Shown here in pieces: positions 4,579 through 55,154 of a stretch of 64,000 bases of DNA (position 1 is its first letter; every line of letters begins with the position of its first letter). Source of the stretch: Omnitrophica WOR_2 bacterium GWF2_43_52 (lineage in GTDB: Bacteria; Omnitrophota; Gorgyraeia; Gygaellales; UBA12090); NCBI GenBank assembly GCA_001805445.1, contig MHGF01000034.1, positions 33,929 to 97,928 on the forward strand, in the 5' to 3' direction. The notes under the pieces were generated by a model. It was given only the letters and a program-made list of their open reading frames with translations, made no database searches and was not told the DNA's origin. The translations under genes and the position numbers were made by a program.

Positions 4579-4607
4579 TTTTCCACAGTATCAACAGTTT
4601 ATCCACA
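4579..4607. promoter_or_regulatory. DnaA box pair (TTTTCCACA and perfect TTATCCACA) immediately upstream of dnaA
   Basis: ttttccaca at 4579-4587 and ttatccaca at 4599-4607, read directly from the sequence. Consistent with dnaA autoregulation or part of oriC. Confidence 0.5.
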
Positions 4608-4937
4608 GAAACAAAAGACAAAAATTCTCGCTTTTCCCTAATGGCATAAGAATGTAAAGCACTAGGCTTTATTGTGTACGCAATCGTGAATAGATGGCTA
4701 TAGAGAATAAAACAATTAGGGAATTAGAGTTGCGGGATTAAATACTCTCTTCTCGAACTCCTCAACGTCGCACCCAGGAATTAAGCTTTTCGTATAACCG
4801 GAAAATAATTATAGCAGGAATAGAAACCATTGCAAGTAAAAAATTAATGGTTCTATGAGAAAAAGAGGCTAGATAGAAAAATGGCTTGTTGTTTGTCTGG
4901 AACGTCTTTACTTGCAAATTCCTGAAGGTATGTACTC

Positions 4938-5190
4938 CACTAGTACACCGTGACATAAATTACTGTTATATAGGGCGGAGGTCCTGTCAAGGTTATGTCT
5001 TCGCGGGGACGAACGGCTCAGCTCCTGCGGCAGGCCTCACTCGGCGTAAATTTCTGCACGCCTCGCTCACCGCTCGGCGGCCAAGCTGCAAAAATTTCCG
5101 TACGCCCCGCTCACACATAACCTTGCCACCCCCGCTTTCAAGATAAAGCGCGGTAGCATGAATTTATGTCATAACGCACTAGTGTATAGG
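4938..5190 (+). repeat. MITE-like repeat family A, copy 1 (~250 bp, imperfect terminal inverted repeats, highly structured core)
   Basis: Left end cactagtacaccgtgacataaatt, right end catgaatttatgtcataacgcactagtg (inverted). Core gggcggaggtcctgtcaaggttatgtcttcgcgggg...gcaaaaatttccgtacgccccgctcacacataac shared with 54905-55127 and, inverted, 34271-34513. Confidence 0.6.
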
Positions 5191-5241
5191 TAGGCAAAAT
5201 TCAGAATTAAGGCCGTTGTTTGGGTGCGGATAGAAAAGGGC

Positions 5242-5923: not shown

Positions 5924-7747
5924 TTATTGCGATTGCGCGGGAACGGCTATTTGGGCATTAAGCGAAAATATCCTGGTTTGGGATTTGGTTAACCCGGTTA
6001 CCTTGCCTGTCTGCGTGTTTCTTTGAGGGCTAATCTCTTCTAACTGCAAGTCTGAAGCGGTAATATTTTTTAAATAGGGTATGTTCTCTAAGTTGCCGCG
6101 GAAACGTTTGATGAGGCCAAGCGCTGTTTCATAATCACTCACTACGGCAGCCGAAATGCTTAGACGATACGTTTCGGCAATAGCACCATAAGAAACATCC
6201 GGATTCTCCGCGGCCTCTTGCGCCATATCTGCAGCCTGTCCTTTAGCGATGGTTACGTGGGTTAAAAGAATGGCCTGAGGCGTACTTTTAGCCAAAGAGG
6301 CAAGGATTAAGAAGAAAGGAATTCTTTGGTTATGTATGGCTTCAATGGCCATTGTATCCTGGGTTATCTTTTTTTCCCGCCTGTCGAATTCCTTGAGGGT
6401 TTCGGCAACGTCTCTAACTATTGCCAAATCTGTTTCTATTGTGGCAAGCGCCTTGGTATATATCAGAGTGTGAACGAAGGCTATCGCCGAAAGCGTGGCA
6501 GTGCTACATACCAAAACGATAGCTGCAATAAGAAACCACAGGCGTTTTTTGGCATGTGTTTTTTTGGCTTTTAAATTTGGCGGCAGGAAATTAATTACCG
6601 CGATCTCTTTCTGTCCACAGCTTAAAGCAATGGCCGCGGCATTACTAAAAATAGGCGTCTGCGCATGGTTCTCGATACCGGTGCCATGTATCTGCATATT
6701 CTTAAAAGGATAGACTATCTGCCATTCACCGCCGAGCTGTTTGACCAAGAGCGCGATCAGGTTTTTAATATGGGCGCCGCCGCCTAAAAAGCAGATATGT
6801 TCCACCCTTCTACCTTCGGATTGTTCCTTATAAAACATAAGCGAACGCCTTAACTCATGAAGCATGCGTTCAATATGCGCCTGCCAGAGCGAACGTAATT
6901 CCAGGGCATTAATTTCCTCCAGTTCATTCTTACCGGCAGTATCAACGCTTGCCTCATATTTTTGGCGCATGATTTCTTCGGCAAGGGCAACTTTGTCTTT
7001 TAAATCAAAATCTACCTCAGGAATTCCCTTTTCTAGGAGTACTTCTTCCGTCCGGTTTTCGGAAAGGGCGAGGTTTTTAGCAAGATCTTTGATTATATCA
7101 TTGAGGCCAAACGCGGTATTCCTGAAAAAACTAAGTTTCCCTTCCCGCAGGATAGAGGTGTTGATAGAGAGCATTCCGATATCAACAAACGCGGTATCGG
7201 CATTTTTGTCGGCAAGGGCCTGCGCGGGAAGTAGAGAAAATAAGGCGGAGCTCGAGAATCCAATAAGTTCAGGCTCAAGGTGCAGGTATCCAAAGAGCTC
7301 AAGAAGGTGTTTTACCAGGGATATATCGGAACGGGCAACCATAACCTCATAGCGGGGAATTTTCGCGGTAATTCGCGAGCCAACAAGGAAATTCTCAAAA
7401 ATATGGTTTGGCCCTGACACAGGAATCATTTTACGCTTTGCCTCGGTCGTGGCTATCGCGGTAAGTTCATTTTTAGCAACCCGGGGAAGTAACAGCGTCA
7501 TGGCGCTTACCGCGTTTGAAGGCAAGGTGACGGCAATATGGGCAGCGCGGAGTTTTTCCTGCGGAATATGTTTGGTTGTCTCTTCCCAGAATATTTTTAT
7601 ATCAAGGGGATTCCCGCTTGCGGCGGCTTGTGAGAGATAGGGGGTTTTAAACTCAAGCCACGCGGTAAGCGTAATGGCGGGTTTACGTTCCAGAGCTACT
7701 ATCTTGGTGTAACGGCTTCCGATATCTATGCCGATATAATTTTCCAT
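5924..7747 (-). CDS. pilMN: PilM (actin-like ATPase) fused to PilN-like TM/coiled-coil domain
   Basis: N-terminus IGIDIGSRYTKIVALE (PilM), then TM WFLIAAIVLVCSTATLSAIAFV and a PilN-like periplasmic part; 607 aa. Confidence 0.75.
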   Translation of the reverse strand: MENYIGIDIGSRYTKIVALERKPAITLTAWLEFKTPYLSQAAASGNPLDIKIFWEETTKHIPQEKLRAAHIAVTLPSNAVSAMTLLLPRVAKNELTAIATTEAKRKMIPVSGPNHIFENFLVGSRITAKIPRYEVMVARSDISLVKHLLELFGYLHLEPELIGFSSSALFSLLPAQALADKNADTAFVDIGMLSINTSILREGKLSFFRNTAFGLNDIIKDLAKNLALSENRTEEVLLEKGIPEVDFDLKDKVALAEEIMRQKYEASVDTAGKNELEEINALELRSLWQAHIERMLHELRRSLMFYKEQSEGRRVEHICFLGGGAHIKNLIALLVKQLGGEWQIVYPFKNMQIHGTGIENHAQTPIFSNAAAIALSCGQKEIAVINFLPPNLKAKKTHAKKRLWFLIAAIVLVCSTATLSAIAFVHTLIYTKALATIETDLAIVRDVAETLKEFDRREKKITQDTMAIEAIHNQRIPFFLILASLAKSTPQAILLTHVTIAKGQAADMAQEAAENPDVSYGAIAETYRLSISAAVVSDYETALGLIKRFRGNLENIPYLKNITASDLQLEEISPQRNTQTGKVTGLTKSQTRIFSLNAQIAVPAQSQ

Positions 7748-8974: not shown

Positions 8975-9415
8975 TTATTGTTCTCTCCAGCTCCAGGCTG
9001 CTTGAATATCGTTTGCAGTATCAATATTAGGAGTCTCGATGTTGGTAATTTGTAGGCTAATTTGTCTTTCGGCTATCGGGTTAGCCGCGGCATCTAAAGT
9101 CTGTCCTGCCGAAATAATGTTCCTATTGACGCCACCAAGAGTATTTACAGTATAGCCATATCTTCCACTGCCAAAGTTTTGCCATGGTGAGTTAAAAGGG
9201 AACAGGCCTCCGGGATTATTCCTGATCCAAATTTTAGCCTCTTCAATTCCAGCCTGCGCCAAATACAAGGCAATCAGCCCGTCCCTGTCAGATGAGCGGG
9301 TGCGTAGCTCCGATTCCCACATTGAAGCAAGCCCTGAGCCTAAAATAGCAAAGACAGCTGTAACAAAGAGGATAAAAATCATGGCCTGGCTTTTTACATT
9401 GCTAAATTGTTTCAT
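8975..9415 (-). CDS. PilX-like minor pilin / pseudopilin (N-terminal hydrophobic segment without canonical G|FTLIE)
   Basis: MKQFSNVKSQAMIFILFVTAVFAILGSG... Its N-terminal region is paralogous to that of the 31488..32597 product. Confidence 0.45.
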   Translation of the reverse strand: MKQFSNVKSQAMIFILFVTAVFAILGSGLASMWESELRTRSSDRDGLIALYLAQAGIEEAKIWIRNNPGGLFPFNSPWQNFGSGRYGYTVNTLGGVNRNIISAGQTLDAAANPIAERQISLQITNIETPNIDTANDIQAAWSWREQ

Positions 9416-9425
9416 TGTTAAATTG

Positions 9426-9797
9426 CTACACAGTTAACCGATCATTAGTAAATTTAATCAAGGAGTTGACTTCTTTAGGTAATCTCTCTAGTTCGCCAGA
9501 GATATGCAGATATTCGTTGTTTCCCAGCAATTTTCTTTTATTTGCTTTTTCCGCCCAATCCACGCTTTCCTCTATTGAACCATAACTGTAGCGATAGAAA
9601 TTAATCTTATCCTTCTTAAAATATCTCCCAAAACCTTCCGCGATATTAGCTGAGATAGAATCGACTGCTTTAACCAGTTGTCTACCCACGGTATCTTTAG
9701 CAAAATAATCCCATTTAATCACTATTCTCCAGATATAATTAGATAAATCAAAAGCAATTCTATAGGAACTCAAGTCTTTTAGCCCCAGATATTTCAT
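9426..9797 (-). CDS. four-helix-bundle protein (TIGR02436 / 23S rRNA IVS protein / Avd-like family)
   Basis: ...RQLVKAVDSISANIAEGFGRYFKKDKINFYRYSYGSIEES... carries the S(I/V).ANIAEG and GS..E signatures of the family; 123 aa. Confidence 0.7.
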   Translation of the reverse strand: MKYLGLKDLSSYRIAFDLSNYIWRIVIKWDYFAKDTVGRQLVKAVDSISANIAEGFGRYFKKDKINFYRYSYGSIEESVDWAEKANKRKLLGNNEYLHISGELERLPKEVNSLIKFTNDRLTV

Positions 9798-9827
9798 AAC
9801 AATTTAACCTTTTGACAATTTAGCAAT

Positions 9828-10418
9828 TTAATTCCTCGGCCTCACCTGCGTGCGCAGGGTGTAATCGCGGTTTTCCCTGCCGATCGGCAGCGTTGGTTGT
9901 GGGCGGACGGTGAGCTCAATAGTATACAATCCTCCTCCGGCATCGGTAAAAAGGGCGTTGCCGCTGGGATTAGGAAGGACAATAAAATTTGCTAATTCTT
10001 CCCAAGCGCTCCAGGCGCTCCAAAGAGGCCCCGGAGGGCCGGTTCTGGTTCTTTGTCTCCTTTGTATCTGCGCAGTCGCCCCTGCGGGCCTTCGAAATTG
10101 TACCTGAATATCTCCAATATCAACGTCATTGTCACCGTCAGAATCTCTGCCGAGCTGTATGCCGTTACCTACGAGGATAATCTGAGTTTGTGCCCATGCA
10201 GGAGCAGCGCTTACAGTGGCGTGTCTTACCTCGTTTGCCATAAATTCCATTGCCCAACGGGCATTCTGGACTAAATCAAGGGTGTTTCTTTGTTTGCGCC
10301 AGGCCTGTTGTACGGAGGAAAATATGCCGCTGGCTCCCGCCATAACCAATCCAAGGACGGCAATGGCGACTAATACTTCAAGTAAGGTAAAACCCTTTTC
10401 ATTGCTACATTGTTTCAT
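9828..10418 (-). CDS. type IV prepilin-like minor pilin
   Basis: MKQCSNEKG|FTLLEVLVAIAVLGLV is a class III signal with Glu at +5; 196 aa. Confidence 0.75.
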   Translation of the reverse strand: MKQCSNEKGFTLLEVLVAIAVLGLVMAGASGIFSSVQQAWRKQRNTLDLVQNARWAMEFMANEVRHATVSAAPAWAQTQIILVGNGIQLGRDSDGDNDVDIGDIQVQFRRPAGATAQIQRRQRTRTGPPGPLWSAWSAWEELANFIVLPNPSGNALFTDAGGGLYTIELTVRPQPTLPIGRENRDYTLRTQVRPRN

Positions 10419-10458
10419 GGCTAAATTGCTAAGCCTGTTAACAGTTTGACCGTTTGTT

Positions 10459-10954: not shown

Positions 10955-11479
10955 TTATTGTACCCTCACATAGCCGGTGTTGTTAAAAACCTGCACAGTT
11001 CTGGTTTTGCCTTGGGCGTTGAGCGTAATGGTTGTGGTGCCAGCGCTTGAGGCGTTTCCTTGAGGAAAAAGAAAAGAGAATTGCGTCAAAGGGAGTACTG
11101 ATACTAAATCAATTCCTGCGCTTAATGTTCGCCGTTTTATTTCTTCATTGGCATCAGGCGCGCTATTCGCGTTTAGATCGTCGTAAATGGCATAGCTTTC
11201 GCTTGAGGTATCAAAAACCACAATCTGATTTCGGTGTTTAGCTACTGCCATCTGGCGCATCCAGCAGAGGTCAGCGGCAATTGACCGGGCATCAAGCGTA
11301 AGCCTGTTTCCAGTAAGAGAAGAAAATGAAACCATGCTTAAGGCGCTGAGTGTGGCGATAATGGCAATGACAACCATGAGCTCTATTAGGGTAAACCCCG
11401 TTGGAAACCCTATCTTCTTTGCGGGTCGCCCTGTAGTTTCGAACGGGGTAAAGCTGGTTATATAGTTACATTGTTTCAT
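10955..11479 (-). CDS. type IV prepilin-like protein (long leader)
   Basis: ...GFPTG|FTLIELMVVIAIIATL; 174 aa. Confidence 0.7.
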   Translation of the reverse strand: MKQCNYITSFTPFETTGRPAKKIGFPTGFTLIELMVVIAIIATLSALSMVSFSSLTGNRLTLDARSIAADLCWMRQMAVAKHRNQIVVFDTSSESYAIYDDLNANSAPDANEEIKRRTLSAGIDLVSVLPLTQFSFLFPQGNASSAGTTTITLNAQGKTRTVQVFNNTGYVRVQ

Positions 11480-11508
11480 GGCTACATTGTTAAAACAAAA
11501 GCACCTTT

Positions 11509-16739: not shown

Positions 16740-16785
16740 AGTTTTTAGGTTATCAGAAATAGAGAATCTGTATCATAATAATGGT

Positions 16786-17099
16786 TCATTCGTAAATTTT
16801 GTGGATAGTGTGCTTCACGAAACTAATACTTTTTTCGCTCAGGACGATTTTTTCACGTCAAAAAGTCTCTCACAGTTTCGGCGACTGCGGAACTCGCCCG
16901 TCAGCTTGCGCCAGGACGGGCTCAAACATCCTCGTCGTCCGCTATTACATTAGTGGCGGATTCCCGAAACTGTTCGGACTTTTTGACTAAAATCGTCATT
17001 CGCTGAAAAAACCATTAGTTTCATTGCGCACAGTAATTTTAGCGTTTCTCTTTTACTATTAAATAGTTACGATAACTGCTCCACATTATTTGCGAATGA
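16786..17099 (+). repeat. MITE-like repeat family B, copy 1 (~314 bp, 16-bp TIRs tcattcgtaaattttg / cattatttgcgaatga)
   Basis: About 90% identical to 31156-31469 in the same orientation. The interior folds as nested inverted repeats (gacgatttt/aaaatcgtc, gtcaaaaagtc/gactttttgac, cagtttcgg/ccgaaactg, gcccgtc/gacgggc). Confidence 0.65.
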
Positions 17100-31122: not shown

Positions 31123-31155
31123 GGCCCATTCTCCTTCTTTAGGTAATTTAAGGTC

Positions 31156-31469
31156 CTTTCGTGAATTTTGTGATTAGAGTAGTTTGCGAAACTAATAATT
31201 TTTTCGCTCAGGACGATTTTTTCACGTCAAAAAGCCTCTCATAGTTTCGGCGACTGCGGAACTCGCCCGTCGGCTTGCGCCAGGACGGGCTCAAACATCC
31301 TCGTCGTCCGCCACTATTGCACAGTGGCGGATACCCGAAACTATTCGGGCTTTTTGCCTAAAATCGTCATTCGCTGCAAAAACTATTAGTTTCGCTATGC
31401 ACAGTGATCTTAGTGATGCCCTTGATTATCAAACAGTTATGTTACTTGCTCCACATTATTTACGAATGA
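31156..31469 (+). repeat. MITE-like repeat family B, copy 2
   Basis: Collinear with 16786-17099, including the terminal cattatttacgaatga. Confidence 0.65.
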
Positions 31470-31487: not shown

Positions 31488-32597
31488 TTATTGTTCCTGC
31501 CAGGTTGTTGACGAGAAATTCCCGGAAATGCCCATGCCGGTAGTGTCTACATACCTATCGGCATATTTAAGTTCAATATTGCCTCTGAGGTAAATAGCGG
31601 CTCCCATCAGGCCGCCTTCATTGTGTATACAATTAAAATCTATCGTTCCGTATTGCGTATAAATCAGGCCAGTAAAGTCGCGGCTTGAAGAAAGGTCCCC
31701 ATCTGGCGCAGAAGAAATAATGTTTCCGTTTTGTGTAGCCAAATTCGGAAAAGTTTCCGGCCCACCTTGTTTATTATGGGCAGAGATACTCATTTTTCCA
31801 ATTCCAATAATGGTAATGTTTCCTTCGGCAACGATACTTGTTTTTGAAAAAGTGATTTTATTGTTTCGATTAGTGCCGGTATCAATAGTGACATTTCCCG
31901 TAACGTAATAAAATTTGTTGTTATAACTGTTCTCTGCAAAAGTAGAAGAGCCGTTAGTGTAGTTGCATTGATTGCCGCAGGTTTTAGCATAATCTTCAAA
32001 ATACGTCATATTAATCGCGGGGATGCTGGTTGGCCCGACAATAGCAGTTGCATTTGAAGGCGGAGGAAAGGTCCAATCTTCGTCTTCATTGATCGTTGCA
32101 TCACTATCATCCCCTTCAAAATTTGGCGAGGCGATAGTTCCGTTGACGCTTATAGAATAACCGCTGGTATTATTCCAGTCAAACCTGTCTCCTCCTGCCG
32201 CGACGTTACTAAAGCCTCCCTGGGTAAGCGTAAGGTTTACCTGCCGCAGCGCGCGGTAGTTTGCCTGAGAAGGAACGTAACCTGTTGTAATAACAGTGAG
32301 TGCGTTGCCTGAGGAGGTGCAGTTACAGGCGTATTGCCCTGGCCCAAATGTGTGAGTTACATTGGTAATATTCGTGCAGTTAAAATTCCGGGAGAGTTGG
32401 TTTTGCGCCCATTGCGCTCCGGCCTCGGCTATATTGAGTGCTTGTTCAGAATTAAGGGTACGCAGGTTTATTTCAAAATCGCCGGACTCAAGATTGAGTA
32501 ATGCCCAGCCCAGAATGCTAAAAACCAGCATCGCGAAGATGACGATGATCAGGGCGGCCGCTTTATTATTACCGTGTATATTGCTAAATTGATTCAT
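31488..32597 (-). CDS. PilX-like minor pilin, Asn-rich with many N-x-S/T sequons
   Basis: MNQFSNIHGNNKAAALIIVIFAMLVFSILGWALL is paralogous to the N-terminus of the 8975..9415 product. About 15 NxS/T sequons in 369 aa. Confidence 0.45.
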   Translation of the reverse strand: MNQFSNIHGNNKAAALIIVIFAMLVFSILGWALLNLESGDFEINLRTLNSEQALNIAEAGAQWAQNQLSRNFNCTNITNVTHTFGPGQYACNCTSSGNALTVITTGYVPSQANYRALRQVNLTLTQGGFSNVAAGGDRFDWNNTSGYSISVNGTIASPNFEGDDSDATINEDEDWTFPPPSNATAIVGPTSIPAINMTYFEDYAKTCGNQCNYTNGSSTFAENSYNNKFYYVTGNVTIDTGTNRNNKITFSKTSIVAEGNITIIGIGKMSISAHNKQGGPETFPNLATQNGNIISSAPDGDLSSSRDFTGLIYTQYGTIDFNCIHNEGGLMGAAIYLRGNIELKYADRYVDTTGMGISGNFSSTTWQEQ

Positions 32598-32639
32598 TGT
32601 TAAATTGTTAAACGATCATTGGTAAATCTAATAACCTTA

Positions 32640-32745
32640 ATTAATTGTTTGCCCACAGTATCCTTGGCAAAATAATTCCATTTAAGCATAGTTTCCCGCA
32701 TATAATTTGATAAATTAAAAGCAATTATATGCGTACGTATATCTT
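32640..32745 (-). pseudogene. truncated remnant (N-terminal ~35 codons) of a four-helix-bundle gene paralogous to 9426..9797
   Basis: Nucleotide collinearity between 32640-32745 and 9690-9800 (ttgtttgcccacagtatccttggcaaaataattccattt.. versus ttgtctacccacggtatctttagcaaaataatcccattt..). Minus-frame translation ..LKDIRTHIIAFNLSNYMRETMLKWNYFAKDTVGKQLIK, then a stop. Confidence 0.5.
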
Positions 32746-32999
32746 TTAACTCCAGCAGTTTAGCAATTTAACCATGTAACAATTTAATTCCATCACTTTA
32801 ACTCCAGCAGTTTAACAATGTAGCCATGTAACAATTTAATTCCGTCACTTTAACTCCAGCAGTTTAACAATGTAGCCATGTAACAATTTAATTCCGTCAC
32901 TTTAACTCCAACAGTTTAACAATGTAACCATGTAACAATTTAATTCCGTCACTTTAACTCCAGCAGTTTAACAATGTAGCCATTTAACAATTTAATTAA
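32741..32999. repeat. tandem array, 5 copies of a 52-53-bp unit carrying the pilin 5' motif
   Basis: Unit ctttaactccagcagtttaacaatgtagccatgtaacaatttaattccgtca starts at 32745, 32798, 32850, 32902 and 32954. It contains catggctacattgttaaa (minus strand), identical to the start-codon region of the 10955..11479 gene. Confidence 0.8.
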
Positions 33000-33553
33000 A
33001 GGTTTCTCGGATACACCTTTGTTTTTATTGTCTTAGACTGCGTGCCCGACTGAAACGTCGCGTTAATATCTATCCGATAGACATCGGTCGCGGTAGGCGC
33101 GACAAGCGGCGTCGTAATAAGCTGGTTAGTTTTATTGTAATAACTAAAGGTGAAATTGTTTACCCCTGCGGCAAGGATGTCGGTATTACGCAGTAAATTA
33201 TTGCCTGATACTTGATAGGAAATTGACGTGCTCTTGGTGTCAGTAAACTGTAATTGCCAGGCGCTGGCGGCTGCAAGCGAGTCGGCATCCCGCATCTGCC
33301 GTATTTCCCTTGACATTCTCATCAGCGCCAGCCTTCCCTGCGAAATCACTTCATTACGAAAGGAAAGGAAACGCCAGAGATTAACGGTTTCTCGGATATA
33401 GAGCGACGAGATGCCGGTTAAGATTCCCACGATAACGATTACCGTAATCAGTTCAATCAGGGTTACGGCTTTGGTTGAGTTTTTTTTACTCGTTTTCTTT
33501 TGTGTTGTCATATAAAGATACAGAGAGTACTGAAAAAATACCTTTTTACACAA
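32996..33553 (-). CDS. type IV prepilin-like minor pilin (FimT/PilW-like)
   Basis: ...NSTKA|VTLIELITVIVIVGILTG. The likely start is the internal MTTQKK at about 33511. Confidence 0.65.
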   Translation of the reverse strand: MCKKVFFQYSLYLYMTTQKKTSKKNSTKAVTLIELITVIVIVGILTGISSLYIRETVNLWRFLSFRNEVISQGRLALMRMSREIRQMRDADSLAAASAWQLQFTDTKSTSISYQVSGNNLLRNTDILAAGVNNFTFSYYNKTNQLITTPLVAPTATDVYRIDINATFQSGTQSKTIKTKVYPRNL

Positions 33554-34199: not shown

Positions 34200-34270
34200 T
34201 AATCAAGATACAATAACCATATAATAAACAATCACCAATTTACCAATATTTAAATAGTTTTGTTGTTTGG

Positions 34271-34513
34271 ACATTAGTACATTGTTACATAAGTTTTTAA
34301 AATAGCTGTAAAAATGGGTGGCCGGGTTGTGTTTGAGCGGGGCGTACGGAAATTTCTGCGGCTTGGACTCCGCCGCAGGCGGAGCGCAGAAATTTACGCC
34401 GAGTGAGGCTTGCCGCAGGAGCAAGCCGAACGTCCCCGCGAAAACATAACCTGGACAGGACCCATTTTTACCATCATATCTATCAAAGAACTTATGTAAC
34501 AATGCATTAGGTA
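34271..34513 (-). repeat. MITE-like repeat family A, copy 3 (inverted orientation)
   Basis: Core is the reverse complement of the 4973-5150 core (gagcggggcgtacggaaatttctgcg...). TIRs cattagtacattgttacataagtt / aacttatgtaacaatgcattagg are homologous to the copy 1 TIRs. Confidence 0.6.
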
Positions 34514-34609
34514 TTGGAATTTATTTGGTAATTGTATTTTGGTTATTGATTATTGTATACTCTTATAATTTCTTTTCCATTTTAACCTGCAACCTGTGGC
34601 CTGTGGCGG

Positions 34610-40168: not shown

Positions 40169-41914
40169 TTACAGCTTAAATTTGGTCACCATGTTTTTAA
40201 GTGATAGAGAAAGATTAGAAAGCTCCTGCGCGGACGCTGACATTTCTTGCATTGAGGCAGTCTGTTCCTCGGTTGAGGAAGAAACCTCTTCCGCGGTTGC
40301 CGCTGATTCTTTGGCAATGCTGGAGACGTCGTTAACAGCCTTAGAAACGAGCTCATTATCTTTTACCTGCTGCTGCATAGAAGTAGATATCTGATTTGCC
40401 ATGGCGTTGACTTCTTGCACAGCCTTGTTGATCTCGCCGAGGATATCGGTTATCTTGGTTACTTCGGCTCTGCCTTCCTGCACTTCTTTGGAACTTGCCT
40501 GTATGGCGCTGACTGCTTCCTGAGTCTCTGACTGAATGGATTTAATGAGTTTTCCAATCTTTCGCACTGCCTCGGCAGAGCCTTCGGCAAGCTTTCGCAC
40601 CTCTTCGGCGACAACCGCGAAGCCGCGTCCTGCTTCACCGGCTCGCGCTGCCTCGATGGCCGCGTTTAATGCCAGAAGATTGGTTTGGTCGGCGATAGAA
40701 GTAATGGTATCGGTGATTTCACCGATAGCCTGGGATTTTTCTCCCAAGCCCTGGATGACTTTCGCGGTTGAGACAACCGTGTCCGCGAGCCGGGTGATCT
40801 TTTCCACCGCTTCCTGGGCCGCGGTTTTTCCGTTCTGGGCGTAATTTGAGGCTTGGTTTACCGCGCTTGAAGTGCTTTGGGCATTAGCTACCGCTTGTTT
40901 TAAGTTTACCGATGACCTTTCCATTGCCAGGGAAGTCTGCGAGCTCTTTTCTGCCTGGGTGCTGGCGCCTTTGGCAACATTGTTGATGGCGGTAGATACT
41001 TCCTGGGTTGAGGCATTCATTTCTTCCGCAGAGCTGGATAGTTCTTGCGATGACGAGGCAACTTTATCCGCGGTTGAGCGCACCTCAAGGAATATCGCGC
41101 GGAGTGAGTCTAAAAGTTTGTTGAACACCTCGCCAAGCCTGCCGAGTTCGTCTTGAGAGCTTATCTTTATCTTATCCGCGGTCAGGTCTCCCTGGGCTAT
41201 TCGTTCCGCGGTAGCAACTACCTGTTGCAAAGGAAGCGTAATTTGGCGGATGATTAACACGCAGATGATGAGGATTAAGACAATGTCTCCAAGGCCAATC
41301 ATAATCAAAAGGAAGGTCCTCCATCTGATGGTAGCTGTCCCGCGCTGCTCATCAACTTTGTTTCTTTCGATGGACATAGAAACCACCTTGTCAACGCCGA
41401 CGCGGTGCTCTTCGTATTTTTCATTGAGAAAAGTTTTGGCTAATTCCCGCGCCTTATCCTTTTCACCCTTTTGAATGAGAGGAATGAATTCATCAAAGAA
41501 TTTCTTATGGAATTCAATAGCCGGATTATACGAAAGGCTGATGATCGCGTCTCTGAGTTCTTTATCCGTTGCCAGATCTCCAAAACTTTCAGAGATCCAG
41601 TACTCATGGCGGGTGTCGTATTCGCTTTTTAAGAATTTGGCATTTTCAATGAGCTTCTCAATCTTTACGGAATTTGTTTCATCAAGAAGCTGAAGGCTGA
41701 TGAGATAGGTTTCAATGATATATTCAGGTGGAGGAAGGACATCCGCGATAAGGTCTTTTCCCTGCACAATCCTCTTATAGAGGGGGCCGTTGACCTTTAC
41801 CGTGTTCAATGTCCAATACGACATTATCCCAAAGATAAAAAACCCTAGTATTGATACCCCAGCCAGCAGCATCAGGCGCAGCTTTATGCTAAGGCCTTTG
41901 ATTACATTCATCAT
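40169..41914 (-). CDS. methyl-accepting chemotaxis protein (TM, HAMP, MA domain)
   Basis: [25 protein letters not shown]; signalling hairpin [33 protein letters not shown]. Confidence 0.9.
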
Positions 41915-46900: not shown

Positions 46901-47049
46901 ACTAGTACACTGTAACAAAAGTTTTTAACTCTTCCCCTCCCTTGATGGGAGGGGTTAGGGGAGGGAGATGCCCGACTAATATCACCCCCACCTATCCTCC
47001 CCCATTAAGGGGGAGGAAATTCAATAACTTATGTTATACTGTACTAGTC
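46901..47049. repeat. small element bounded by family-A-type TIRs (actagtacactgtaaca / tgttatactgtactagt) with a G/C-rich hairpin core
   Basis: The TIRs are read directly from the sequence. Core ctcttcccctcccttgatgggaggggttaggggagggag...cccccattaagggggagg. Confidence 0.4.
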
Positions 47050-50693: not shown

Positions 50694-52799
50694 ATGGGGA
50701 AAAAATCATATACCAGTATACGGGTGAAGCTGTTGAGGTGGTTTATCCTTATCTCTATAGGGCCTCTATCGTTAGCTAGTATCCTTATCTACCTTAACAG
50801 CCGTACCATAGTAACCGAAAGAATCGCCAGCGAATTAAATATCTTGACCAAAGGTATTGAAGGAAAGGTAGCGGCATTTATCGAAGGTAAAAAAGGCAGG
50901 ACCCTTGATTTCTGTTCAGATGGTGTGGTCAAAGACGGCCTTACCTATTACGATCCTGATGATTCTGCCGTAGCGACTCTGGTCAAAAATACCAATAATC
51001 ATTTAATTAAAAACAAGATGTCCTTGGATAGTTATTTAGTGGATCTTATGATAATTAATCTCAAGGGAAAAGTCGTTTTTGCCACGAATGATAAGCTTCT
51101 GGGAAGGGATGAATCAAAGAAGGAATATTTTATTAATATCAGTAAATATTTTAAAGATAAGGCAATGCAGGAGAAACTAAAAAAAGATCCTACAGTCTTA
51201 GTCTATGCTACGGATTTTTATATGGCAGAAGATTTAGGCAAGCCGGTATTAGCCATAAGCAATGTGGTTACCGCGCGGGCAACATCGCTTCCTTTGGGGG
51301 TATTGGTTAACCGCTATAAGGGCGATATGCTTAATCAGGTGCTTGCGGAAGAAGGCGATACCTTAGGAACGGGCGGAAAGTCCTATGTGGTAAATAAGGA
51401 TGGTTTTCTATTGACCATACCTAAATTTATGGAAGGAAAAGGCGATCAGGTTATTCTTAAGGAACAGCTTAAGAGTTTTCCCATCATTCAGGCGCAGAAA
51501 AAGTCAGTAGGAACAGACGCGAAAACGTATCAGGATTCTACCGGAAAGACTGTTTTGGGCTCGGCTATGATTGATAAGGCAAAAGGCTGGATTATTCTGG
51601 CAGAACGGGACGTTAAGGTGGCATTCGCCCCTTTAAACAGCTTAGTAAGTCTCTTATGTATCATAGGTATTATAGCGCTGGTGATTGTAATCTTATTGTC
51701 AATCTTTATCTCAGGACGGATTGCCAGCCCTATTCTAAAACTTTTAGGTATTTCTGAGGTGATTACCAAGGGAGACTTAACGACAGAGGTTAACGTTCAC
51801 AGTAATGATGAAATAGGCCGTTTAGCGGATTCTTTTAAAAGTATGGTTGGCGCTATGCACGATATGGTTTCTCAGGCGCTGAGTACCGCGGATAAAGTTG
51901 CTTCGTCAGCACAAGAGCTATCCAGCTCTTCGGAAGAAATGAATGCCTCTACCCAGGAGGTATCCACGGCGATTCAGAATGTGGCAAAAGGCGCGATAAC
52001 CCAGGCTGAACGCGCGGCCCAGACTTCAGAGGCAATGGAGCAGGCATCGGTAACCTTAAAAGAAGTGGTCGCGAATGCCCAGAGTACGACAAACGCGGTA
52101 AATCAGGCAAGCGCGCGCGTGCAAAAGGGTAAGGCCACTGCTCAGGAAGCAGTGAATAAGATTACCGGTTTGACCGATACGGTTGTCTCAACCGCGAAAG
52201 TCATCCAGGGCTTAGGAGAAAAATCCCAGGCTATCGGTGAAATCACTGATACTATCACTTCTATTGCCGACCAGACCAATCTCCTGGCATTAAACGCGGC
52301 CATAGAGGCGGCGCGTGCCGGTGAAGCAGGCCGCGGCTTCGCGGTTGTTGCCGAAGAGGTGCGAAAACTTGCCGAAGGTTCTGCCGAGGCAGTGCGAAAG
52401 ATTGGAAAACTCATTAAGTCCATTCAGTCAGAGACTCAGGAAGCAGTTAGCGCGATACAGGCAAGTTCCAAAGAGGTGCAGGAAGGGCAGGCTGAGGTAG
52501 CCAAGATAACCGATATCCTCGGTGAGATCAACAAGGCAGTGCAGGAAGTCAACGCCATGGCTGGCCAGATTACGACTTTAATTCAGCAGCAGGTTAAGGC
52601 TAACGAACAGGTTACTAAGGCAGTCAATGATGTTTCGGTAATTGCCAAAGAATCAGCGGCAACCGCGGAAGAGGTTTCTTCCTCAACCGAGGAACAGACT
52701 GCCTCTATGCAGGAGATGTCCGCCTCAGCCCAGGAGCTTTCCAACCTCTCGATGAGCCTGAAGAATTTGGTTGGAAGATTCAGGGTGCGCGGAAAATAA
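50694..52799 (+). CDS. methyl-accepting chemotaxis protein with periplasmic Cache-like sensor domain
   Basis: TM-sensor-TM-HAMP-MA architecture. The C-terminal ~300 aa are nearly identical to the 40169..41914 product. Confidence 0.9.
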
Positions 52800-52914: not shown

Positions 52915-52990
52915 GCCTCTAGTACACAGTAAAGATAGTTTTTATGAAAAATATACTGTGCACTAGTAGAACGTGACATTACTTATTGCA
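52915..52990. repeat. TIR-only remnant of MITE family A (ctagtacacagt ... actgtgcactagtagaacgtgacattacttattg)
   Basis: Palindromic pair read directly from the sequence. The right half matches the copy 1 left TIR (actagtacaccgtgacataaattactg). Confidence 0.35.
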
Positions 52991-54742: not shown

Positions 54743-54904
54743 ACCCGCATTGTAGTTTCTTACGCATTCCCTTATGAAACTTTCATGCCCCGCTAAAGGC
54801 GCGGGGCACTAAAGAGAATGAAAATTAGGATACCCCCGAGGTGCAACGTGTTGCTCTTTTGGGGTGAATGATGGTTATATCGGTGATTATGGTAATCCGG
54901 ACAG

Positions 54905-55127
54905 AAGTGCACTACTGTCATAGATTTCTCTTAGGCAGGGCGGAGGTCCTGTCAAGGTTATGTCTTCGCAGGGACGTTCGGCTTGCTCCTGCGGCAATCC
55001 TCACTCGGCGTAAATTTTCGCGCCCGCCACTAAAAGCGATGGCGGGTCCAAGCCGCAAAAATTTCCGTACGCCCCGCTCACACATAACTTTGCCACCCCC
55101 GCTTTCGAAGGTAGTGACTAGTTCAAT
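54905..55127 (+). repeat. MITE-like repeat family A, copy 2
   Basis: Core gggcggaggtcctgtcaaggttatgtcttcgcagggacg...gcaaaaatttccgtacgccccgctcacacataac, collinear with copy 1. TIRs partly degenerate. Confidence 0.6.
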
Positions 55128-55154
55128 GCGGGTTTAGAATAAGGAGATTTTCGA

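What the first reader, a model, noticed from the sequence alone, without database searches (positions are those of the whole stretch)
4938..5190. MITE family A: three ~240-bp copies with a conserved, highly structured core, plus TIR-only variants
Copies lie at 4938-5190 (+), 54905-55127 (+) and 34271-34513 (inverted). They share a ~170-bp core full of nested hairpins. One example is ggcgtacggaaatttctgcg..cgcagaaatttacgcc with an inner ctccgccgcaggcggag stem. They also share homologous ~24-bp terminal inverted repeats (cactagtacaccgtgacataaatt / cattagtacattgttacataagtt). The same TIR sequence also bounds a different G/C-hairpin core at 46901-47049 and an almost empty TIR pair at 52915-52990. 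This points to a non-autonomous element family that has picked up different cargo. All copies are intergenic: upstream of dnaA, between hemA and hemC, between pilin genes, upstream of the CheY-like pair, and after the MCP. The long ORFs that the six-frame track calls inside them (4886..5146, 54868..55137, 34203..34502) are artefacts of the repeat.
Basis: seen in the sequence. Interest (0 to 1): 0.5.

Follow-up and report, generated by a model that had tools for sequence, protein, structure and literature searches.

The report
Omnitrophota MITE carrying conserved hairpin module
These are real miniature non-coding transposons in an uncultivated Omnitrophota bacterium that duplicate a 4-bp NTAN target as IS5-type elements do, and three of them carry a strongly folded ~150-nt module that also occurs, without the transposon ends, in distant members of the phylum.

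Summary
The window holds three copies of a ~150-nt GC-rich core: 4980-5131 (+), 54945-55098 (+) and 34316-34462 (-). Two of them sit inside intact 229-235-bp elements with ~18-bp terminal inverted repeats (TACACYGTRACATAARTT). The same repeats bound a 138-bp element with other cargo (46906-47043) and a 40-bp near-empty element (52923-52962).

All four intact elements are flanked by perfect 4-bp direct duplications: CTAG three times and TTAG once. Related contigs add GTAG and CTAC. The non-palindromic cases rule out a TA-only duplication. The 229-bp element is 99-100% identical at four or more loci with different flanks, so it moved recently. The MITE reading is supported, with an IS5-like YTAR/NTAN target. 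No autonomous parent was found.

The core is a separate module. It occurs without these repeats in other Omnitrophota, with at least 8 copies in MAG JAZDOX01. It folds as a three-way junction: 96% of cells are paired and 19 of 46 pairs show compensatory changes (0 of 500 shuffles reach this). Its loops are nearly invariant.

It matches no Rfam family. It shows no strand bias, no fixed orientation and no associated gene. It is best read as a REPIN-like selfish hairpin repeat nested in MITE shells. A functional RNA is not excluded.

The parts
4940..4943 (.). Target-site duplication CTAG, left of element A1
   Evidence: The same tetranucleotide recurs at 5179-5182.
4944..4961 (+). Left TIR of A1 (TACACCGTGACATAAATT)
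   Evidence: 0 mismatches to the motif.
4980..5131 (+). Core copy A1: three-way-junction hairpin module
   Evidence: Covariance model R1, 140.5 bits, E 1.5e-33. Alignment.
5161..5178 (-). Right TIR of A1 (reverse complement TGCGTTATGACATAAATT)
   Evidence: It matches the left TIR at 13 of 18 positions.
5179..5182 (.). Target-site duplication CTAG, right of A1
34274..34277 (.). Target-site duplication TTAG, left of element A3
   Evidence: This is a non-palindromic direct repeat.
34278..34295 (+). TIR of A3 (TACATTGTTACATAAGTT)
34316..34462 (-). Core copy A3
   Evidence: Model R1, 171.3 bits, E 1.8e-41.
34489..34506 (-). Second TIR of A3 (TGCATTGTTACATAAGTT)
   Evidence: 15 of 16 match between the two TIRs.
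34507..34510 (.). Target-site duplication TTAG, right of A3
54910..54928 (+). Decayed left TIR remnant of A2 (7-nt deletion relative to A1)
   Evidence: Alignment; sequence.
54945..55098 (+). Core copy A2
   Evidence: Model R1, 160.8 bits, E 9e-39. Present in all public assemblies of the species.
55110..55121 (-). Truncated right-end remnant of A2, ending in CTAG
46902..47047 (.). MITE shell with different cargo: CTAG + element 46906-47043 (G/C hairpins CCCCTCCC..GGGAGGGG) + CTAG
52919..52966 (.). Minimal TIR-only element: CTAG + 40-bp element 52923-52962 + CTAG
52967..52984 (+). Solo TIR-like sequence abutting the mini element (TAGAACGTGACATTACTT)
   Evidence: 4 mismatches. It resembles the tandem arrangements seen in L004, L001 and L005.

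Best explanation
This is a family of non-autonomous DNA transposons (MITEs) in a Candidatus Omnitrophota genome.

The shell is a pair of ~18-bp terminal inverted repeats plus short subterminal sequence. I infer that a DDE transposase encoded elsewhere binds these repeats and cuts and pastes the element into NTAN tetranucleotides, preferring CTAG. Repair then duplicates the four bases, as IS5-group elements do.

New insertions often land on the tetranucleotide next to an existing copy, which produces tandem MITEs.

The shell carries exchangeable GC-rich hairpin cargo. In three window copies the cargo is a ~150-nt module that folds as a three-way junction:
- P1, an outer stem;
- P2, GCGGSG/CSCCGC;
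- P3, a side hairpin GGCYTGC-UCCUGCG-GCARGCC;
- P4, GCGUAAAUUUYYGCG pairing with CGCRRAAAUU-(UCCG bulge)-UACGC;
- a variable apical hairpin P5, next to a UCCRAGCC loop.

This module is an interspersed repeat in its own right across Omnitrophota. It occurs without the MITE ends, and its stems are kept by compensatory change while its loops stay nearly invariant.

Most likely the module is a REPIN-like selfish hairpin element whose single-stranded fold is what gets recognised and copied, and it became nested in MITE shells. The shell then moves it as passive cargo.

Shown: the repeats, TIRs, target duplications, recent multi-locus copies, covariation, and independence of core from shell. Inferred: the transposase family, the nesting order, and how the core itself spreads.
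For: Target duplications:
- All four intact window elements have perfect 4-bp direct duplications.
- Non-palindromic pairs occur as TTAG/TTAG (window), GTAG/GTAG/GTAG (L004) and CTAC/CTAC (L023, L027).
- The 229-bp A3-type element is 99-100% identical in window/L009, L004/L012, L011 and L014, with different flanks and different duplicated tetranucleotides. This excludes a TA-only duplication.
- CTAG is eightfold depleted in the window (30 observed against 243 expected), and 7 of those 30 lie at MITE ends.
- IS5 duplicates Py-T-A-Pu, most often CTAG (PMC5493358). The IS5-derived MITEPsy1 duplicates CTAG or YTAA (PMC3189936).

Shell and core are separable:
- L004 has an A1-type shell (95-98% identical) that lacks P2-P4.
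- JAZDOX01 has shells with other cargo, plus 8 cores without shells.
- L003, L007, L013 and L026 carry the core without intact TIRs.

Core structure:
- 96.1% of cells are paired.
- 19 of 46 pairs show changes on both sides, against a shuffle mean of 11.4 (0 of 500 shuffles reach 19) and at most 7 for the slid controls.
- P3 and P5 are local hairpins on one arm, so what is kept is a single-strand fold, not mere symmetry between the two ends.

The inner core is 85-90% identical between genomes whose orthologous proteins share only about 50% identity.

Neighbouring genes are unrelated housekeeping genes, and no protein family recurs beside the core.
Against: - No autonomous IS with these TIRs, and no transposase, was found in the window or in any fetched locus.
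- GTAG/CTAC targets fall outside the strict YTAR consensus.
- I found no boundaries or target duplications for the shell-less cores, so their mobility is inferred only from being dispersed.
- The near-invariance of unpaired core positions (23 of 36 interior unpaired columns invariant) is more than hairpin stability alone would need. It could instead reflect an RNA or protein-binding function.
- No presence/absence polymorphism was seen among public assemblies of the species.
Confidence: 0.75

Rival explanations
1. The core is a functional, strand-specific structured RNA, such as a protein-titrating sRNA or an RNA-processing or stability element. In this view MITE shells spread it and the host keeps it.
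For: - Strong covariation, with invariant junctions, bulges and loops.
- The inner core is 85-90% identical between genomes whose orthologous proteins are about 50% identical.
- Four conserved unpaired UCC motifs, which read GGA on the other strand: the CCUGUC bulge, the P3 loop, the UCCRAGCC loop and the UCCG bulge (alignment).
Against: - No strand signal: 20 G-T/T-G cells against 23 A-C/C-A cells at variable pairs.
- Orientation relative to flanking genes is mixed, mostly sense in the window lineage and mostly antisense in JAZDOX01.
- No promoter or terminator consensus inside or beside the copies beyond the shuffle expectation.
- No Rfam match even at E up to 10.
- Multi-copy, with insertions and deletions tolerated in P3 and P5 (L017 and L027).
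Confidence: 0.15
2. The whole element, core included, is ordinary MITE interior. On this reading the shell-less cores elsewhere are just MITE copies with decayed ends, and the covariation reflects subfamily structure rather than selection on folding.
For: - A2 in the window, and L003-type copies, show remnants of degenerate TIR and subterminal sequence next to the core.
- Cells count sequences, not events, so related copies inflate the counts (note).
Against: - The eight JAZDOX01 cores have different P1 stems and flanks and no TIR remnants, while intact shells with other cargo exist in the same genome.
- At least 5 independent compensatory events occur in P4 alone, and a G-C to C-G swap occurs in P2.
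- The shell sequence between TIR and core is unrelated in A1-type and A3-type elements, while the core is 84% identical.
Confidence: 0.07
3. The MITE is mobilised by an IS630/Tc1-mariner-type transposase that duplicates only TA within an NTAN target. On this reading it is Correia-like, not IS5-type.
For: The central TA is invariant in every flanking tetranucleotide, and IS630 is known (from my own knowledge) to target CTAG and duplicate TA.
Against: Under a TA model the first and last element bases would have to differ between 99-100% identical copies, and would have to match the opposite flank each time (window CTAA..CTAA against L004 GTAG..GTAG; also CTAC..CTAC in L023 and L027).
Confidence: 0.03

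Closest known systems
IS5-family-derived bacterial MITEs, e.g. MITEPsy1 of Pseudomonas syringae (PMC3189936)
   Same: Small, non-coding, ~18-bp TIRs. A 4-bp duplication of CTAG or YTAA-type targets. Multiple near-identical copies in intergenic DNA.
   Different: - The TIR sequence is unrelated.
- GTAG/CTAC targets are also used.
- No parent IS has been identified.
- Size varies from 40 to 260 bp because the cargo is modular.
- Insertions often lie in tandem, sharing one tetranucleotide.
REPINs (REP doublets forming hairpins, mobilised by RAYT tyrosine transposases; PMC3116915)
   Same: For the core only. It has two conserved inverted arms around a variable spacer or tip. It forms a long hairpin in single-stranded form, and compensatory changes keep the pairing. 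It is dispersed in extragenic space between housekeeping genes, and it persists across lineages.
   Different: - The core is longer (~150 nt) and asymmetric, with a side hairpin and bulges on one arm only.
- It has no GTAG-headed REP unit.
- No RAYT gene was seen.
- It is found nested inside DDE-type MITE shells.
Correia elements (Neisseria) and ERIC/BOX-type mosaic palindromic repeats (from my own knowledge)
   Same: Intergenic palindromic repeats of 100-250 bp with TIRs. They fold into long hairpins when transcribed, and they have modular or mosaic variants.
   Different: Correia elements duplicate TA, whereas here the duplication is 4 bp. There is no sequence similarity. No promoter or IHF-site evidence was found here.

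Membership tests
Prokaryotic MITE (non-autonomous DDE transposon) | Short (under about 300 bp) and without coding capacity | tested here: met
   Elements are 40-259 bp. The ORFs over the three copies are in different frames.
Prokaryotic MITE (non-autonomous DDE transposon) | Terminal inverted repeats shared by family members | tested here: met
   18-bp motif: 5 matches against 0.18 expected. TIR pairs are also present in related loci.
Prokaryotic MITE (non-autonomous DDE transposon) | Direct target-site duplication flanking each copy | tested here: met
   4 of 4 intact window copies have one. Non-palindromic TTAG, GTAG and CTAC duplications were found.
Prokaryotic MITE (non-autonomous DDE transposon) | Several near-identical copies at unrelated loci | tested here: met
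   The A3-type 229-bp element is 99-100% identical at four or more loci with different flanks.
Prokaryotic MITE (non-autonomous DDE transposon) | An autonomous partner IS with the same TIRs and a transposase gene | tested here: inconclusive
   None was found in the window or in about 0.35 Mb of related loci. The whole genome was not available.
IS5 family (IS5 group) derivative | 4-bp duplication of Py-T-A-Pu, CTAG preferred | tested here: met
   CTAG dominates, and CTAA/TTAG are present. GTAG/CTAC also occur, which is slightly outside the consensus (PMC5493358).
IS5 family (IS5 group) derivative | TIRs matching those of an IS5-family IS with a DDE_Tnp_1-type transposase | not testable with these tools
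REPIN / REP-RAYT system (core only) | Inverted conserved arms plus a variable spacer forming a hairpin kept by compensatory change | tested here: met
REPIN / REP-RAYT system (core only) | Arms are REP units: a short GC palindrome with a conserved GTAG/GGAG head | tested here: not met
   The core arms have no such unit. GTAG-headed REP-like palindromes do exist elsewhere in the JAZDOX01 flanks.
REPIN / REP-RAYT system (core only) | A single-copy RAYT (Y1 HUH) gene flanked by the repeats | not testable with these tools
   No transposase was found among the nearest neighbours of 22 copies. The whole genomes could not be scanned.
Any Rfam RNA family | A covariance-model match at or near the gathering score | tested here: not met
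   No match at the gathering threshold in the window. Only chance-level hits (E 0.67 or higher, 9.6-14.4 bits) on three copies.
Correia-like / IS630-type MITE | TA dinucleotide duplication | tested here: not met
   The duplication is 4 bp.

The most novel reading that the evidence does not exclude
The ~150-nt core may be a previously undescribed class of structured nucleic acid specific to Omnitrophota. It is a three-way junction with invariant loops and bulges, including four unpaired UCC/GGA motifs, and it is kept by compensatory evolution across genomes whose proteins are only about 50% identical. On this reading it has a sequence-specific job: either a protein-binding or regulatory RNA, or the recognition fold of an unknown single-strand mobilising enzyme. 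It would then use MITE shells only as one of several vehicles.
Probability: 0.25. Interest if true: 0.6.

Novelty: new member of a known kind. Interest (0 to 1): 0.4.

Why it matters
Omnitrophota are an uncultivated phylum, and two searches of the held paper library found no paper describing MITEs in them.

This family shows active IS5-like MITEs with modular hairpin cargo and a habit of inserting next to one another. That habit explains why public MAGs of this species break, or carry N-gaps, exactly at these sites.

The core is the more useful lead. It is a well-supported covarying structure shared by distant members of the phylum. It could serve as a marker for these genomes. It is also a test case for whether structured selfish repeats of the REPIN type exist outside Proteobacteria and Cyanobacteria, or whether it is instead a new ncRNA.

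Tried and rejected
- Exact look-ups of DnaA failed twice, probably because of a start-codon difference.
- The first genome-collection scan, with a 21-mer from the right arm, found nothing. The second, with the left-arm 19-mer, found JAZDOX01 and MHHA01.
- Viral contigs, plasmids and phages gave no match to the core or the element.
- Rfam at the gathering threshold and at E up to 10 on three copies gave nothing meaningful. There are no tRNA or tmRNA genes.
- Protein coding is rejected: the frames differ between copies, and a 17-codon ORF ending at the conserved GCGTAA has no conserved start (reading).
- A promoter or terminator role is not supported: no sites beyond the shuffle expectation, and the A/T runs flank the stems in the wrong order for a terminator.
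- The strand of function could not be determined: 20 G-T against 23 A-C cells.
- Gene association is rejected: the neighbours are unrelated housekeeping genes.
- The empty-site search among public assemblies of the same species failed. The apparent length differences in the hemA-hemC spacer are N-gaps, and the pilin-CheR spacer is the same length in both assemblies shown.
- A relative with 79% identical DnaA has a PilO-dnaA spacer 272 bp shorter, consistent with absence of A1. However, the DNA covering that site was not retrievable.
- I considered that the core inserts into pre-existing palindromes, which would explain copy-specific P1 stems. I dropped this because P1 variants are shared within subfamilies and differ by ordinary compensatory changes.

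Full report
**Observation**

The three ~240-bp copies are real. Alignment of 4920-5200 (+), 54890-55140 (+) and 34260-34530 (-) shows a shared ~150-nt GC-rich core (57-63% GC, against 44.6% for the window). Blastn between copies gives 83-85% identity with E 1e-39 to 1e-52.

The TIR motif TACACYGTRACATAARTT occurs five times at 3 or fewer mismatches, against 0.18 expected. Whole elements fold at -98.7 and -106.8 kcal/mol, with z-scores of -6.2 and -9.2 against shuffles.

The element with other cargo at 46906-47043 and the 40-bp TIR-only element at 52923-52962 are also as described.

Pfam confirms most of the stated gene context:
- PilO | A1 | dnaA
- HemA | A2 | HemC
- histidine kinase | cargo-B | two CheY
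- MCP | mini | sirohaem synthase

The 34.3-kb copy lies between a pilin-like gene (N-terminal GLTLIE motif) and a ComFB-CheR gene, not between two pilin genes.

The ORFs laid over the copies read the shared core in different frames in the three copies, so they are artefacts.

**The shell is a transposon**

Every intact element in the window is flanked by a perfect 4-bp direct repeat:
- CTAG at 4940 and 5179
- TTAG at 34274 and 34507
- CTAG at 46902 and 47044
- CTAG at 52919 and 52963

CTAG is palindromic and could have been part of the TIR. TTAG/TTAG cannot be. Related contigs add GTAG/GTAG/GTAG (two tandem elements in L004) and CTAC/CTAC (L023, L027).

The 229-bp A3-type element is 99-100% identical in window/L009, L004/L012, L011 and L014. 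Similarity stops exactly at the TIR ends, and the flanking tetranucleotides differ between loci. That shows recent transposition. It also excludes a TA-only duplication, because under that model the terminal bases of near-identical copies would have to change in step with the opposite flank.

CTAG is eightfold depleted in the window (30 against 243 expected), and 7 of the 30 sit at MITE ends.

A 4-bp Py-T-A-Pu duplication with CTAG commonest is the signature of IS5 (PMC5493358). The IS5-derived MITEPsy1 behaves the same way (PMC3189936).

Insertions often abut an earlier copy and share its tetranucleotide. This is seen in L004, L001, L005, L011, L014 and at window 52919-52984.

No transposase-bearing parent was found in the window or in any fetched locus.

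**Host**

DnaA homologues place the window in Candidatus Omnitrophota. Exact HemA and CheR matches show the same species in public MAGs DMEX01, MHFW01 and MHHL01 and in Rifle aquifer scaffolds. Those assemblies carry N-gaps or contig ends inside the hemA-hemC core copy, as expected for a multi-copy repeat.

**The core is a module of its own**

A metagenome scan with a 21-mer from the core returned 14 true loci. A genome scan with an independent 19-mer returned 8 copies on 6 contigs of Omnitrophota MAG JAZDOX01 and one in Omnitrophica WOR_2 MHHA01.

The JAZDOX01 copies, and L003, L007, L013 and L026, lack intact TIRs. JAZDOX01 does contain shells of the same TIR type, with CTAG/CTAC duplications, but they carry other hairpin cargo. 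Conversely, L004 has an A1-type shell, 95-98% identical to A1, from which P2-P4 are absent. Shell and core therefore assort independently.

The sequence between TIR and core is unrelated in A1-type and A3-type elements, although their cores are 84% identical.

**Core structure**

RNAalifold on 15 distinct copies gives a three-way junction. On 19 distinct copies aligned to model R1:
- 96.1% of cells are paired;
- 19 of 46 pairs show changes on both sides, against a shuffle mean of 11.4, and 0 of 500 shuffles reach 19;
- the slid controls give at most 7.

The changes include at least five independent events in P4 (CU/AG, UU/AA, UC/GA, GCG to AUG, GCG to GCA). There is a G-C to C-G swap in P2, a U-A to C-G swap in the one-armed P3 hairpin, and a wholesale but complementary replacement of P1 between lineages.

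P3 and P5 are local hairpins, so what is conserved is a single-strand fold, not just symmetry of two ends. Unpaired interior positions are as conserved as paired ones (23 of 36 invariant).

The inner core is 85-90% identical between genomes whose orthologous CobD or RecG proteins are only 38-52% identical. That implies either constraint or horizontal spread.

**What the core is not**

- It has no Rfam match at the gathering threshold or at E up to 10.
- There are no tRNA or tmRNA genes in the window.
- It does not code for protein.
- Promoter and terminator patterns do not exceed the shuffle expectation.
- It is absent from viral contigs, plasmids and phages.
- Its neighbours are unrelated housekeeping genes such as alanine racemase, CobD, BirA, RecG, DnaE, GlyS, HisRS and PPDK, and no protein family recurs next to it.
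- Its orientation relative to flanking genes is mixed.
- The three window copies lie on one replichore in both orientations. GC skew turns positive near 4-5 kb, next to dnaA.
- G-T and A-C intermediates are equally frequent, 20 against 23, so no functional strand can be named.

**Mechanism**

The best-supported account is a composite. An IS5-like DDE transposase acting in trans moves the TIR-bounded shell into NTAN sites. The shell carries passive, exchangeable hairpin cargo. The A-type cargo is a REPIN-like selfish hairpin repeat of Omnitrophota whose single-strand fold is what selection, or its own mobilising enzyme, sees. REPINs show the same pattern of conserved inverted arms, a variable spacer and frequent compensatory changes (PMC3116915).

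The core fails the REP-unit criterion, and no RAYT gene could be looked for genome-wide, so I do not file it as a REPIN.

A functional RNA remains possible. The conserved loops and the four unpaired UCC/GGA motifs point that way, but nothing strand-specific supports it.

**Novelty**

The MITE is a new member of a known kind, in a phylum where two searches of the held paper library turned up no paper describing MITEs in Omnitrophota. The core is an undescribed covarying motif whose role is open.

Noticed in passing
window 32693-33004; also 9383-9429, 9798-9835, 10386-10432, 11447-11493, 32565-32611: Five tandem 52-nt units. A related AT-rich motif (CATTGYTAAATTGYT...) recurs near pilin-like genes. 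This may be a shared regulatory region or another repeat family.
   Followed up: no
window 16783-17099 and 31152-31469: A direct repeat of about 320 bp at 81-90% identity, 14.4 kb apart.
   Followed up: no
window 40188-40837 and 52122-52771: A 650-nt inverted repeat at 86% identity. The second arm lies in the MCP signalling domain of the gene at 50694-52799, so this is probably a paralogous MCP.
   Followed up: partly
whole window: CTAG is eightfold under-represented (30 observed, 243 expected from base composition). Seven of the 30 sites are at MITE ends.
   Followed up: yes
L030, L031, L035, L037 (hemA-hemC spacer of public MAGs DMEX01 and MHFW01 and of ENA contigs): Public assemblies of the same species have N-gaps or contig ends exactly inside the core copy. 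This mimics length polymorphism.
   Followed up: yes
L004 10781-11166; L001 about 1960-2262; L005; L011; L014; window 52919-52984: MITEs of this family often sit in tandem, sharing one flanking tetranucleotide. This suggests a preference for inserting at the edge of an existing copy.
   Followed up: partly
L017 about 7350-7410 (minus strand): One JAZDOX01 core carries a 41-bp mini-palindrome (GTTAGAGAAAA..TTTTTTCTAAC) inserted in P3, flanked by a 10-bp direct repeat GGCTTGCTCC. This is a second, unrelated tiny mobile element.
   Followed up: no
L022, L024, L028 flanks: GTAG-headed GC-rich palindromes (e.g. GTAGGGGCGACCCTTGCGGTCGCCC) resembling classical REP units. A further repeat, ATTGATTTTTATCTTCGCYGCAC, also occurs in the JAZDOX01 Omnitrophota MAG.
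   Followed up: no
window 4579-4607 and the 4-5 kb region: Two DnaA-box matches (TTTTCCACA and TTATCCACA) lie just upstream of dnaA, and GC skew changes sign here. MITE A1 therefore sits about 340 bp from a likely origin or dnaA-promoter region.
   Followed up: partly
core alignment (A2/A3), all copies: Four conserved unpaired UCC motifs, which read GGA on the other strand: the CCUGUC bulge, the P3 loop UCCUGCG, the UCCRAGCC loop and the UCCG bulge. They resemble either CsrA-type GGA sites or anti-Shine-Dalgarno sequence. The enrichment is only marginal.
   Followed up: no
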